Source of the DNA: Octopus sinensis | Lineage: Eukaryota | Reading direction: 5' to 3' | Length of the DNA stretch: 64,000 bases | Assembly (NCBI RefSeq): GCF_006345805.1 | Contig: NC_043015.1 | Span: 21,204,001-21,268,000, forward strand | Shown here: positions 25,561 through 58,478 of the stretch, piece after piece | Numbering within the stretch: position 1 is the first letter of the stretch | Layout of the letters: every line of letters begins with the position of its first letter | The notes under the pieces: generated by a model | Database searches by the model: none | What the model was told of the DNA's origin: nothing | Seen by the model: the letters and a program-made list of their open reading frames with translations, nothing else | Made by a program: the position numbers and the translations under genes

Positions 25561-26350
25561 TGATGGTATATCCATAGCTGTTGCTGATCAGAGATATCGC
25601 GGTGGTGACATATACCAGTTGTTACATTATAAAACGTTATATGATATCAAATACTACAAGCAGGAAACGGTAAAGTTGAAAACACGAGACATACGACTAC
25701 AATAATTCCGCTCACCGCCATTCCCGCTTTCGCAGCAAATACAATTAGAACGAGAAAATATATACCAGCAGAAGAAGCAGCCGTAGCAGAAGCAGCGATC
25801 GTAATGATATGTAAATTAAGAAATAAAAACTAAAAAAAAAAAGCAAATTAATAACCACATAGAGTAACTACATTAATAAAGCGATGTATATAGTATTGAT
25901 GAAGCATAGTGGCACATTTTCGGTTGTATAGCACAGGAGTTACGCACACACACACGCACGAACGCACAATTTTCAACGGTGTTGGAGAACATAAAGGTTA
26001 AATTTGTAGATAAAAAAGTTATCTGTCATGAAGGACTGTAAACCATATCCACAATGGAAAATAGTTGCCTGTATCATGATTATTCGCGCCAAAGGCGGAT
26101 ATCATGGCTATAGTCACCAGCAGTTTATGTGTCTGAATTGAATTTAAGGCCATGGCCTTCAATTGTCTGAAAGATTCCGGCGTGCGGAATGCCGCCGTGT
26201 CCATTCTTGTTGGCCACGGCTTCCTCGTCTCCGTTGCAGCTGTTCATGACAAGTCTTATAAGCTCGACAGTGTTCACAGTGCATTCAGCAGCAGTCATAT
26301 CTATCTATCTATCTATCTATCTATCTATCTATCTATCTATCTATCTATCT

Positions 26351-27442
26351 GCACCGCGAGTGTCGCGTTGCTCTCAAGCAACTCTGCCGTCCTGGGTCGA
26401 CCTTAAGTGACTTCAACACAACCAAAGCATTCTATAGGGGTTTAGTGGAGGGGAGGTACGACGACGAGCTCGGGGCGAACCTGGACGTCGACGAGGAGTA
26501 CCTGACCCGCCTGTTCGGGACGACTTTCGGGCCAGGGCCCATGGACAACTTCCAGAGATCCCTGGCCTGGCAGTGCTACCGAGAAGCGCTACCCGTTCGG
26601 GATAAGCTCTACAGACACGGCTCGAGAAACACGGGGCCGACCTGCCCGAGATGCGGTCAGAGCGACGAAACCGTTCTGCACGCACTCGTTCAGTGTCCAA
26701 CAATTTCCGACCTGTGGGCTTATGTCGAACAACTGCTGTCACGTGTGGGACGAGTCGGTTTATCAGCTGAGTCTATCGTCAATATTGTCACGCCTCCTTC
26801 CTTCAAACGGGAAGGCAGAGCTATTTTCATCATCCTTGTGGCTATGGCGAAAAAATGTATCTGGTGGACGCGTCTGAAAGGATTGGAGACAAACACTTTC
26901 CTCTCTGGTCAATCTCTCATCAACTTCTTCAAGTACCACTTGAAAAGGAAAGTGAGAGTAGAGAGGCAAGTTTTGTCTAGCGAATGTTTTAAAAAAAGAA
27001 TGTAGCAAGAATGGCACGTATGAATGACGAAGCCACCTTGAGCATAGTCCTATGAACCCAGAAATCGAAAACAGAGAGTTGCTTATTTGCAAAAAAAAAA
27101 AAAAAAAAAAAAAAATATAAAATGTGACTTCATTGACCGAGGTTACCGTGGTCTTTTCCGTAGGCTTTTCTTTCCACGGGTAAACCTCACCTGTCCTCCC
27201 CTTTACACTTCATATTGACATTTCTGTGATAACGATCCCTATTGATCAATTTTTTTTCCTCTCCCCCTTTTTTTTTTTTTTAACCCCCCCCTTTTTTTTG
27301 TCCTCTTTCTCTCCTTTTACGATCCCTTTTGATCGAAACTCCCCCTTCCTTTTTTTTTTTTTTTTTAAACCTTCAAAAGAAAAGCTCTACCTTGTAATTT
27401 GTTCTATCTGTGTGCAGCCCTGTGTGGCTAATAAAGAAACAT
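26351..27442 (+). mobile_element. 5'-truncated Tx1/L1-clade LINE, copy 2, within (ATCT)n
   Basis: ORF to 27005 with zf-RVT CPRCGQSDETVLHALVQC; a small deletion near 27000 shifts the frame; (ATCT)n on both sides. Confidence 0.92.
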
Positions 27443-27723
27443 ATCTATCTATCTATCTATCTATCTATCTATCTATCTGTCAGTCTATTCATCAGTCTAT
27501 TTATCAATCTATCTATCAGTCTATCTATGTATCTATCTGTCTGTCTATCTGTCTGTCTGTCTCTCTATCTGTCAATCTCTCTATCTATCTGTCTATCTAT
27601 TTGTCTATCTATCTATCTGTCTATATATCTATCTGTCTATATATCTATCTGTCTATCTATCTATCTATCTATCTATCTATCTATCTATCTATCTATCTAT
27701 CTATCTATATGTATGTATATATA

Positions 27724-27890
27724 TAGTGTTTCAAAAATTTGATATAATTTCGCAATCTAATAACTTTGCCAGTTCTAATATTAACAGCATGTGTAGAAAC
27801 AGTCAAAATTTTATGTTTACTGTTTGATATGTTTATCTTTTCAGGTGCAGAAATGGCGTTCACTGGATGAGAAAATGCGTTTTGTGTGCT
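27724..27890 (+). mobile_element. Possible Tc1-like (DUF4817-type) transposon 5' remnant
   Basis: atggcgttcactggatgagaaaatgcgttttgtgtgctt translates MAFTG*ENAFCVL, resembling the start of these transposases. Confidence 0.35.
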
Positions 27891-55591: not shown

Positions 55592-55960
55592 TTTTCTACT
55601 CTAGGCACAAAGCCCGAAATATCGGGGAAAGGGCTAGACGATTAGGTCGCCCCCGTACGCAATTGGTACTTAATTTATCGACCCCGAAAGGATGAAAGGC
55701 AAAGTCGACCACAGCGGATTTCGAACTCAGGACGTAACGGCAGACGAAATGCCTATTTCTTTACTACCCACAAGGGGCTAAACACAGAGGGGACAAACAA
55801 GGAAAGACAAACGGATTAAGCCGATTATATCGACCCCAGTGCGTAATTGGTACTTATTTAATCGACCCCGAAAGGATGAAAGGCAAAGTCGACCTCGGCG
55901 GAATCTGAACTCAAAAGCATTTCGCCCGGCGTGCTAACGTTTCTGCCAGCTCGCCGCCTT
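55592..55960 (-). mobile_element. Dimeric SINE family C (two cores, two tails)
   Basis: atcgaccccgaaaggatgaaaggcaaagtcgacc occurs twice (about 55677 and 55861); head ...gccagctcgccgcc. Confidence 0.85.
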
Positions 55961-57129
55961 GTAAATAGCAGTAATAATAACAACAGTGCTATTGGTACTG
56001 GTAGTAATATTAATAACAGCAGCAGTAACATGCGTCGTCATTGTCATCCCCATCATAGTAGTAGTAGTAGTAGTAGTAGTAGTAGTAGTAGTAGTAGCTG
56101 CTGTTGATTAAACCTGAATTAGCAGCGATTGAACAGTTCCACTATTATCAAAGATGTTCTAGCTGTGCAACCGAACCTTCTTTACCAGGGAACATAAGTG
56201 TATCAAGGACTACGTAGTCCAATGTGTCATTTTTTGAAAACAAAGCTTGTGAGATGTGATGTAATCCATTGTAACCTATCCACTCATATTTCCTGTATGT
56301 TTGAACGATCGTCCATGACCATCTCTTCCTCGATGACTGGCAATTAAAGAGGTTTAATGAGATGAAAGTAATGCAGAAGCGAATTAAGTGATAATTTTTA
56401 AAGAGAAACCATTGGATCAGAGGACAAACTCATGGAGCGAGAGCCGGAGAGAAAGAGAGTGTGAGGGGGAAGGAGGAGGAAAGAAAGAAGGAAAATGAGT
56501 GCAGTGAGGGAGAAACCATAATAAAATATAAAAATAAGAGAAAATAATCACCAAATCACCGAATAAAATAAAATAAAAATGTTAGAATAAGAAAATGATA
56601 AAAATGATGCGTAGTCACGCAGAATCACTTAAGATGTGGTACGTGACTGACAGCTGTATTTCACAGGCAGGGTTCAAAATACGGGAAGAGAGAAGGGTGA
56701 TGTTTCTTTTCTTTTTGTTCTCCTTTTATACATTTATATTTTTTTTTTAACATTTTGTTTTTTGTTTTTTATTGAAGAACAGAGGAACAAACTAAGACGA
56801 CCTAGATTTTGACGGTGAATGGAGATTACCGCCCACTAATTAATATGTGCAGAGAACCACCAACGATAATACAGCCATCACCAATATCACCGCTGCCACC
56901 AACACAACCACCGTAACAATCACCGACACCAGCGCAATCGCTCAACAGTTTAAAATGTGTATTTCGTTTCTCCAAAATAAAAAAGTGCAAACTGACATCA
57001 TAAAAAGTATTGGAAATAAACAGCGTGATCTATCTATCTATCTATCTATTTGTCTGTCTGTCTGTCTGTCTGTCTATCTATCTATCTATCTATCTATCTA
57101 TCTATCTATCTATCTATCTATCTATCTAT

Positions 57130-58018
57130 CTACCGAGAAGCGCTACCCGTTCGGGATAAGCTCTACAGACACGGCTCGAGAAACACGGGGCCGACCTGCC
57201 CGAGATGCGGTCAGAGCGACGAAACCGTTCTGCACGCACTCGTTCAGTGTCCAACAATTTCCGACCTGTGGGCTTATGTCGAACAACTGCTGTCACGTGT
57301 GGGACGAGTCGGTTTATCAGCTGAGTCTATCGTCAATATTGTCACGCCTCCTTCCTTCAAACGGGAAGGAAGAGCTATTTTCATCATCCTTGTGGCTATG
57401 GCGAAAGAATGTATCTGGTGGACGCGTCTGAAAGGATTGGAGACAAACACTTTCCTCTCTGGTCAATCTCTCATCAACTTCTTCAAGTACCACTTGAAAA
57501 GGAAAGTGAGAGTAGAGAGGCAAGTTTTGTCTAGCGAATGTTTTAAAAAAAGATGGGTGAATGTAGCAAGAATGGCACGTATGAATGACGAAGCCACCTT
57601 GAGCATAGTCCTATGAACCCAGAAATCGAAAACAGAGAGTTGCTTATTTGCAAAAAAAAAAAAAAAAAAAAAAGAATATAAAAGGTGACTTCATTGACCG
57701 AGGTTACCGTGGTCTTTTCCGCAGGCTTTTCTTTCCACGGGTAAACCTCACCTGTCCTCCCCTTACACTTCATATTGACATTTCTGTGATAACGATCCCT
57801 ATTGATCATTTTTTTTCCTCTCCCCCTCTTTTTTTTTTTTTTTTTTTTTTTTAACCCCCCTTATTTTTGTCCTCTTTCTCTCCTTTTACGATCCCTTTTG
57901 ATCGAACCTCCCCCTTCCTTTTTTTTTTTTTTTTTTTTTTTAATACCTTCAAAAGAAAAGCTCTACCTTGTAATTTGTTCTATCTGTGTGCAGCCCTGTG
58001 TGGCTAATAAAGAAACAT
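57130..58018 (+). mobile_element. 5'-truncated Tx1/L1-clade LINE, copy 3, within (ATCT)n/(GTCT)n
   Basis: Uninterrupted C-terminal ORF to 57616 (zf-RVT); nearly identical to copy 2, including the 3' UTR. Confidence 0.92.
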
Positions 58019-58478
58019 ATCTATCTATCTATCTATTTGTCTGTCTGTCTGTCTGTCTATCTATCTATCTATCTATCTATCTATCTATTTGTCTGTCTGT
58101 CTGTCTGTCTATCTATCTATCTATCTATCTATCTATCTATCTATCTATCTATCTATTTGTCTGTCTGTCTGTCTGTCTGTCTATCTATCAATCTATCTAT
58201 CTATCTATCTATCTATTTGTCTGTCTGTCTGTCTGTCTGTCTGTCTGTCTATCTATCTATCTATCTATCTAGCTATTTGTCTGTCTGTCTGTATGTCTGT
58301 CTATCTATCTATCTATCTATCTATCTATCTATCTATCTATCTATTTGTCTGTCTGTCTGTATGTCTGTCTATCTATCTATCTATCTATCTATCTATCTAT
58401 CTATCTATCTATCTATCTATCTATCTATCTATCTATTTGTCTGTCTGTCTGTATGTCTGTCTATCTATCTATCTATCT
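58019..58478. repeat. Compound (ATCT)n-attt-(GTCT)n satellite with higher-order units
   Basis: Repeated blocks of (ctat)n ttgt (ctgt)n. Confidence 0.9.

What the first reader, a model, noticed from the sequence alone, without database searches (positions are those of the whole stretch)
26297..58060. Young Tx1-type LINE apparently targeting (ATCT)n/(GATA)n microsatellites
Seen: two independent, differently truncated, nearly identical copies (26351-27442 and 57130-58018) have (ATCT)n on both sides in the same orientation. For copy 3 the compound pattern atct...atttgtctgtct occurs both upstream and downstream. Established: Tx1-clade elements are often sequence-specific (e.g. Kibi/TC, Koshi/TTC, Keno/U2). 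Inference: a GATA-repeat-specific endonuclease. Repeats on the 5' side argue against a simple repeat tail.
Basis: partly seen in the sequence, partly recalled or inferred. Interest (0 to 1): 0.7.

Follow-up and report, generated by a model that had tools for sequence, protein, structure and literature searches.

The report
Octopus LINE landing in GATA repeats
Two nearly identical, recently copied pieces of a LINE retrotransposon in what is likely an octopus genome each sit inside a GATA-type microsatellite at the same position of the repeat unit, which likely means this family prefers that repeat as a landing site, while a third, related copy lies outside such repeats and the cutting enzyme thought to choose the site is missing from all three pieces.

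Summary
Observation confirmed, with one omission. Two 5'-truncated copies of an L1-group (probably Tx1-clade) LINE, 26351-27441 and 57130-58017, differ at 2 of 478 coding bases and sit inside (ATCT)n arrays with the same strand and the same 3' register (…AATAAAGAAACA|TATCT). Copy 3's upstream array carries the ATTT(GTCT)n interruptions of its downstream array and of an empty array, so the repeat is host DNA, not only a tail. Random landing is unlikely (about 1e-5 to 9e-4); a loose liking for any microsatellite is less firmly excluded (0.007 for ATCT, 0.21 for any shared class). The finding left out copy 1 (about 10515-11705): a sister subfamily with a different 3' UTR, outside any array, yet followed by TATCT in the same register. 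So 2 of 3 copies, not 2 of 2. No copy holds the endonuclease, so 'GATA-specific endonuclease' is inference; with no poly(A) tail, RNA-target annealing could do part of the job. New: two SINE copies share the LINE's last ~50 nt (0 of 5000 shuffles) and are not in ATCT. Verdict: likely a new target repeat for a known kind of microsatellite-targeting LINE.

The parts
26297..26350 (+). 5' flank of copy 2: AT(ATCT)13, host microsatellite
26351..27441 (+). LINE copy 2, 5'-truncated: ORF2 C-terminus (zf-RVT PF13966, E 3.4e-8), 7-nt deletion near 27000, ORF stop position 27053-27055, 386-nt 3' UTR, AATAAA at 27430, no poly(A)
27442..27706 (+). 3' flank of copy 2: T(ATCT)9 then degenerate ATCT/GTCT array ending (ATCT)13
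57028..57131 (+). 5' flank of copy 3: (ATCT)5 ATTT (GTCT)6 (ATCT)14; last bases CT(A) are microhomologous to the element
57130..58017 (+). LINE copy 3, 5'-truncated: open ORF2 C-terminus 57131-57613 (161 aa, zf-RVT), stop 57614-57616, 3' UTR, AATAAA at 58006, no poly(A)
58018..58478 (+). 3' flank of copy 3: compound satellite of (ATCT)n ATTT (GTCT)m units, seven ATTT interruptions
10515..11705 (+). LINE copy 1 (left out of the finding): sister subfamily, ORF 2-2.5% but 3' UTR about 21-22% from copies 2/3, in-frame stop at 10754-10756, no array, no TSD found, 3' flank starts TATCT in the same register; 5' end uncertain (10515-10530)
60851..61131 (-). SINE copy whose last ~50 nt (60853-60899) match the LINE 3' end at 76-80%; followed by (TA)n, not ATCT
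55754..55960 (-). SINE copy whose last ~50 nt (55756-55802) match the LINE 3' end at about 78%; followed by a second SINE unit
15457..15612 (+). Unoccupied ATCT array with the same ATTT(GTCT)3 interruption: control showing the compound motif is host-typical

Best explanation
The two young copies are 5'-truncated pieces of an L1-group, likely Tx1-clade, LINE that inserted into pre-existing (ATCT)n arrays in one register, likely because the family's endonuclease prefers to nick the AGAT strand of that repeat. Shown: 5' truncation, shared 3' end, array on both sides, same strand and same 3' phase, host origin of the arrays. Inferred: ORF2p (APE + RT + CCHC, as in its 40-44% identical full-length relatives) nicks the bottom strand at 5'-AGATA^GAT-3' (or one base over; the end is ambiguous), the freed 3' end primes reverse transcription at the RNA end just past AATAAA, probably helped by pairing with UAUCU sequence read through from the donor's own array since there is no poly(A); synthesis stops early and joins the upstream array with 0-3 nt of microhomology; any target-site duplication is hidden in the repeat (at most about 17-19 nt at copy 3). 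The preference is likely not absolute: a sister subfamily copy sits at a single TATCT outside any array.
For: 2 of 2 copies of the young subfamily lie in pure ATCT runs of 13-14 units upstream and 4-9 downstream; random-site probability 1.2e-5 to 8.8e-4 after allowing for 2 of 3. 2 of the 3 large ATCT arrays of the window are occupied. All 3 copies are followed by TATCT in the same register; TATCT occurs at 0.0015 per position outside arrays. Copy 3's 5' array shares ATTT(GTCT)n with its 3' array and with the empty array at 15457. Copy 2 has private changes (two substitutions, 7-nt deletion) where copy 3 equals copy 1, and is longer than copy 3, so neither was copied from the other as they now stand. 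L1-group ORF2: zf-RVT; relatives at 59-82% identity including Argonauta; full-length APE+RT+zf-RVT relatives; best solved match human L1 ORF2p, 174 bits against 88 for R2. Precedent: Tx1 families target (TC)n, (TTC)n, (TTCC)n/(TTTC)n (PMC4494074), and endonuclease swapping changed SART1/TRAS1 target choice (PMC7265360 introduction).
Against: Only 2 copies in arrays; 1 of 3 copies is outside any array and has no detectable TSD. Under a null of liking any microsatellite, two copies share a class with p = 0.21 and both hit ATCT-sense with p = 0.007. No endonuclease of this family was recovered: the closest piece is half an APE domain at 59% identity to a relative (P0138). The two SINE copies that share the 3' tail are not in ATCT. 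No genome-wide flank data: two scans of the bacterial/archaeal genome collection found 0 relatives among 55 and 77 pattern matches, and no eukaryotic genome collection is offered.
Confidence: 0.58

Rival explanations
1. Targeting by annealing: the endonuclease is loose, but the RNA ends in (AUCU)n (read-through from a donor in an array, or an encoded short tail), so only nicks in ATCT arrays prime efficiently.
For: No poly(A) after AATAAA in any of 3 copies; all 3 are followed by TATCT in one register, including copy 1 outside an array, as a short templated tail would give. Base pairing of 3' repeats with the nicked target has been proposed for other LINEs (PMC13295347 section 4.1). The tail-sharing SINEs, whose Pol III transcripts would end differently, are not in ATCT.
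Against: The same section reports that Bov-B copies ending in repeats are rarely flanked by matching target repeats, so a tail alone does not usually give both-side arrays. Endonuclease swaps moved specificity in SART1/TRAS1.
Confidence: 0.24
2. Loose preference for AT-rich simple repeats or a short TAT(C/A)T motif, plus survival in neutral DNA; two hits in ATCT are luck.
For: Copy 1 at a lone TATCT and the SINE at 60851 followed by TATATA share only TAT; p = 0.21 that two microsatellite-seeking copies share a class.
Against: (AT)n sites are 2.5 times commoner than ATCT sites (623 against 248) yet 0 of 3 LINE copies lie in them; both-in-ATCT p = 0.007 under this null.
Confidence: 0.12
3. Not separate retrotranspositions: an element-plus-array block was moved by recombination or gene conversion between ATCT arrays, or the arrangement is an assembly artefact.
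For: Both ends of both copies lie in the same repeat, which can seed recombination; copy 3's 5' junction has 3 nt of microhomology.
Against: Different 5' truncation points, different array structures on all four sides, no similarity beyond the arrays; private changes in copy 2; no N in the window.
Confidence: 0.06

Closest known systems
Kibi and Koshi (Tx1 clade, teleost fish; (TC)n and (TTC)n) and crocodilian Tx1 families in (TTCC)n/(TTTC)n (PMC4494074, passages and section 15; PMC3812793, passages)
   Same: APE-type L1-group LINE found inside a microsatellite with repeat on both sides.
   Different: Target is ATCT/AGAT, not a pure pyrimidine/purine repeat; host is likely an octopus; relationship to the Kibi/Koshi branch was not testable.
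Waldo (ACAY)n and Mino (AC)n of the R1 clade; SART/TRAS in telomeric repeats (PMC3812793 passages; PMC7265360 abstract and introduction)
   Same: APE endonuclease elements inserting at a fixed position and strand of a short repeat; tetranucleotide target in Waldo.
   Different: Different clade; SART1 ends in poly(A), these copies have none.
L1-Tx1 families of Octopus vulgaris repeat libraries (PMC13282606: 80 families, 13 recently active)
   Same: Same superfamily label, cephalopod host, recent activity; this family may well be among them.
   Different: The part read (part 1 of 3 and a term search of the supplement) gives no target preference and no SINE partner.
SINEU / Tx1-Mar of crocodilians (PMC4494074 section 16) and SINE/LINE tail pairs (PMC3747384 passages)
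   Same: A SINE likely moved by a Tx1-type LINE; shared 3' tails are the usual mark of a partner LINE.
   Different: SINEU was linked by shared target and 5' heads; here the link is a shared ~50-nt 3' end, and tail pairs in the review are mostly CR1/RTE.

Membership tests
L1 group (L1/Tx1) non-LTR retrotransposon | ORF2 with RT closest to L1 ORF2p | tested here: met
   Via relatives, since the copies lack RT: P0005 (64% identical to copy 2 over the whole piece) hits L1 ORF2p at 174 bits, R2 at 88 or less; full-length P0022 236 against 61 bits.
L1 group (L1/Tx1) non-LTR retrotransposon | C-terminal CCHC zinc-binding region of ORF2 | tested here: met
   zf-RVT PF13966 above cut-off in 2 of 2 copies scanned.
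L1 group (L1/Tx1) non-LTR retrotransposon | N-terminal APE endonuclease | tested here: inconclusive
   Absent from the truncated copies; present in full-length relatives 38-44% identical to P0005 and as a half domain with GDWN, YLDR and TDH motifs in P0138.
L1 group (L1/Tx1) non-LTR retrotransposon | Variable 5' truncation, common 3' end | tested here: met
   3 of 3 copies: three 5' ends, one 3' end.
L1 group (L1/Tx1) non-LTR retrotransposon | Poly(A) tail and target-site duplication | tested here: inconclusive
   No poly(A) in 3 of 3 copies; TSD hidden in the repeat for copies 2 and 3, none found for copy 1 (longest exact match 6 nt).
Tx1 clade | RT phylogeny groups with named Tx1 references | not testable with these tools
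   No named Tx1 sequence among the hits. In a FastTree of 140 unnamed RT domains the cephalopod pair P0005/P0008 nests in a 32-member clade with support 1.0; 150 of 150 listed representatives score 278 bits or more against 174 for human L1, so it is not mammalian-type L1. Motifs look Tx1-like to me from recall only.
Tx1 clade | ORF1 with RRM/CCHC knuckles | not testable with these tools
   All copies are truncated inside ORF2.
Target-specific LINE (criterion of PMC4494074: target in more than 20% of flanks) | One repeat type in more than 20% of flanks | tested here: inconclusive
   2 of 3 copies in this window; too few, no genome-wide data.
Target-specific LINE (criterion of PMC4494074: target in more than 20% of flanks) | Sequence-specific nicking by the encoded endonuclease | not testable with these tools
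   Needs the family's APE domain and an assay.
Kibi / Koshi | Target (TC)n or (TTC)n | tested here: not met
   Flanks are ATCT/GTCT; not filed as Kibi or Koshi.

The most novel reading that the evidence does not exclude
An octopus Tx1 lineage has recently sharpened its target from a lone TATCT to (ATCT)n/(GATA)n arrays, together with replacing most of its 3' UTR while ORF2 stayed 98% identical, and it recognises its RNA by a conserved ~50-nt 3' end without poly(A) that a family of octopus SINEs has captured. It would be a microsatellite target not found in my searches, a specificity shift caught between sister subfamilies, and a tail-sharing SINE partner for a Tx1 element.
Probability: 0.25. 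Interest if true: 0.62.

Novelty: new variant of a known kind. Interest (0 to 1): 0.42.

Why it matters
Microsatellite targeting by APE-type LINEs is known but its mechanism is described as not well understood (PMC3812793). A young family with a new target repeat, a near-identical sister subfamily that seems less strict, and SINEs sharing its tail but not its target would be a natural experiment to separate endonuclease specificity from RNA-target annealing. It would also name a candidate motor for part of the very large octopus SINE load. On its own, one more target repeat in the Tx1 catalogue is a modest advance.

Tried and rejected
Flanks of more copies: two scans of the bacterial/archaeal genome collection for stray eukaryotic contigs found no relative (0 of 55 and 0 of 77 pattern matches); metagenome and viral contig collections stayed unchecked. 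Proteins running from an ATCT array into the element (IYLS repeats) were looked for by eye among 8 + 10 hits: 0 of 18. Names or taxa for unnamed relatives could not be obtained (cluster look-up could not be made; Atlas names uninformative). TSD for copy 1: longest exact match 6 nt; a 9-of-12 match at 10466 was rejected as too divergent for a copy only 2% from its sisters and 50 nt from the homology limit. A 3' UTR hairpin present in both subfamilies folds no better than shuffles (z -0.52, 56 of 200) and is not used; the shared tails gave no common fold. No tRNA or Rfam match in the window, so the SINE head is not confirmed as tRNA-derived. No other ORF2 piece of this family in the window: tblastn with 278 stored relatives hit only the three copies. 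Long (70-100 nt) TSD at copy 3 considered and set aside: insertion into the second ATCT run of an existing compound satellite explains it more simply. Kojima and Fujiwara 2004 is not held and the supplements of PMC4494074, which list flanks of Tx1 families, could not be read; Repbase was not available, so an earlier record of this target cannot be excluded.
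Full report
Observation. A self-comparison of the window shows three copies of one element, all on the + strand: about 10515-11705, 26351-27441 and 57130-58017. The finding names the last two. They differ at 2 of 478 aligned coding bases plus a 7-nt deletion in copy 2, and at 18 of 385 UTR positions, mostly in homopolymer tracts. Copy 2 is preceded by AT(ATCT)13 and followed by T(ATCT)9 and a degenerate ATCT/GTCT array to 27706. Copy 3 is preceded by (ATCT)5 ATTT (GTCT)6 (ATCT)14 and followed by a 460-nt satellite of (ATCT)n ATTT (GTCT)m units. 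Similarity between the two loci stops with the arrays. The ATTT(GTCT)n interruption is absent from the element and from copy 2's 5' flank but is present in the unoccupied array at 15457-15612, so the upstream repeats are host DNA.

Chance. With the three elements cut out, 248 of 60,834 positions have 12 or more nt of pure ATCT on both sides. Two random insertions would both fall there on the sense strand with p = 4.2e-6, or in any one shared repeat class with p = 1.2e-4; times three for picking 2 of 3 copies, 1.2e-5 and 3.7e-4. Counting whole compound arrays as targets gives 8.8e-4. If the element merely liked microsatellites, sharing a class has p = 0.21 and both in ATCT-sense p = 0.007. These are post hoc numbers on two events. 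The orientation point is weak alone, since 16 of 17 ATCT runs and 3 of 3 copies are on the + strand. The register is the better sign: both young copies end AATAAAGAAACA followed by TATCT.

The copy left out. Copy 1 is 2.0-2.6% from the others in the ORF (15 of 213 codons differ from copy 2: 7 silent, 8 not, one a stop at 10754-10756) but 21-22% in the 3' UTR (the UTR figure includes noisy pyrimidine tracts). It is a sister subfamily with a largely different UTR. It has no array on either side and no TSD (longest exact match 6 nt). Its 5' end lies near 10515-10530, with a probable 5-codon gap against the closest relative. Yet its 3' end is followed by TATCT in the same register, a 5-mer found at 0.0015 per position outside arrays. 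So the count is 2 of 3 in arrays and 3 of 3 at TATCT. This fits a relaxed form of the same preference or a short templated tail equally well.

What the element is. The copies encode the C-terminus of an ORF2 with a zf-RVT zinc knuckle. Relatives: 8 longer and 10 similar-sized proteins, the Tx1-like ones 49-82% identical, two from Argonauta hians; two Octopus bimaculoides gene models contain short pieces, one 97% identical to copy 1 over 37 residues. The host is therefore likely Octopus bimaculoides or close kin (inference). A 912-residue relative (64% identical) carries RT and zf-RVT, and its full-length relatives (38-44%, about 1150 aa) carry APE, RT and zf-RVT. The best solved match is human L1 ORF2p, 174 bits against 88 for R2 (likewise), while all 150 listed representatives score 278 bits or more: L1 group, not mammalian-type L1. 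In a tree of 140 RT domains (relatives of 1000-1320 aa plus four shorter ones, kept if they aligned over more than 330 residues) the cephalopod pair sits in a fully supported 32-member clade of unnamed proteins. No named Tx1 reference was available, so Tx1 membership rests on architecture, on motifs that I recognise from recall, and on Tx1 being the L1-group clade named for bivalves and L1-Tx1 the label used for octopus (PMC10294476 sections 9-10 and passages; PMC13282606; PMC8967140 passages). I put it at about 0.85. The family's endonuclease was not recovered; the nearest piece is half an APE domain, 59% identical to the 912-residue relative.

Mechanism. Shown: truncation, common 3' end, no poly(A) after AATAAA in 3 of 3 copies, arrays on both sides, fixed 3' phase, 3-nt microhomology at copy 3's 5' junction and none at copy 2's. 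Inferred from target-primed reverse transcription: a nick on the AGAT strand primes cDNA synthesis at the RNA 3' end; early stop and joining to the upstream repeat; a duplication of at most about 17-19 nt at copy 3 and about 37 nt at copy 2, invisible in the repeat. The choice of site is most likely made by the APE domain, as swapping endonucleases moved SART1 to the TRAS1 site (PMC7265360 abstract and introduction) and as stated for Tx1 families (PMC4494074). But an RNA that reads through into its own array could pair with the nicked repeat and give the same picture; such pairing is proposed but unsettled for other LINEs, and Bov-B copies with repeat tails are rarely flanked by matching repeats (PMC13295347 abstract and section 4.1). 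The two routes are not exclusive. I give 0.58 to endonuclease-led preference, 0.24 to annealing-led, 0.12 to loose preference plus luck, 0.06 to recombination or artefact.

A SINE shares the tail. The last 50 nt of the LINE match the 3' ends of two SINE copies, 60851-61131 and 55754-55960 on the - strand, at 76-80% identity and in register; in each of 4 LINE/SINE pairings 0 of 5000 shuffles reached the score. Of 10 SINE-bearing regions printed, these 2 carry this tail. Shared tails are the usual mark of a partner LINE (PMC4824008 and PMC3747384 passages). The SINEs are older (80% identical to each other) and are followed by (TA)n and by another SINE unit, not by ATCT. If this lineage moved them, strict ATCT choice is recent or depends on the RNA end. 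The central part looks like a Deu-type domain to me from recall; no tRNA or Rfam hit was found.

Comparison with the known. Microsatellite-targeting APE elements listed in what I read: Kibi (TC), Koshi (TTC), crocodilian Tx1 (TTCC/TTTC), Waldo (ACAY), Mino (AC); RLE elements Dong (TAA) and Togen (TG) (PMC4494074 passages and sections 15-16; PMC3812793 passages; PMC4640811 passages). Ten literature searches (listings and abstract starts only, and for only the top 25-30 of 396, 50 and 83 papers) showed no ATCT/GATA-targeting LINE and no Tx1 tail partner for an octopus SINE; passages of PMC4758252 and PMC5203782 added none. The primary 2004 paper, Repbase and the supplements of PMC4494074 could not be seen, so an earlier record is possible. 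It works like Kibi/Koshi but is not one of them (target differs).

Verdict. Real feature; likely a new target repeat for a known kind of element, resting on two insertions, with a third copy showing the preference is not absolute and with the endonuclease claim untested. The shared SINE tail and the sister subfamily make it a useful test case. Novelty: new variant of a known kind. Interest 0.42.

Noticed in passing
window 60851-61131 (-) and 55754-55960 (-): Two SINE copies share their last ~50 nt with the LINE 3' end (76-80%, 0 of 5000 shuffles); other copies of the same SINE body (e.g. 51497-51662, 45898-46057, 30956-31074) carry a different tail.
   Followed up: partly
window 11264-11705 against 27056-27441: 3' UTR about 21-22% divergent between subfamilies whose ORF2 ends differ by only 2-2.6%: possible UTR swap or fast UTR turnover.
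   Followed up: partly
window about 34140-35760 (-): GC-richer element with a T-rich leader and a frameshifted ORF holding a CCHC zinc knuckle (PF00098 at cut-off), no ORF2 similarity: possibly an ORF1-only, non-autonomous L1/Tx1-type element.
   Followed up: partly
window 37593-38940 (+): RT fragment followed by a GIY-YIG-like ORF (both below Pfam cut-off): likely a Penelope-like element.
   Followed up: partly
window 61357-61767 (+): Mariner (Mos1-type HTH, PF17906, E 1.3e-16) transposase fragment.
   Followed up: partly
window 12351-12973 and 12965-13585: Head-to-tail 614-bp duplication, 98.7% identical.
   Followed up: no
window 45209-46056 and 50796-51662: 850-bp direct repeat, 84% identical, each including a SINE copy.
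   Followed up: no
whole window: 16 of 17 ATCT runs and 12 of 13 GTCT runs of 3 or more units are on the + strand; they fall in only a few arrays, so this may be chance.
   Followed up: no
window about 26090-26296: GC-richer 200-nt stretch just upstream of copy 2's array that reads open for 58 codons on the - strand (read by eye); possibly an exon or another element's fragment.
   Followed up: no
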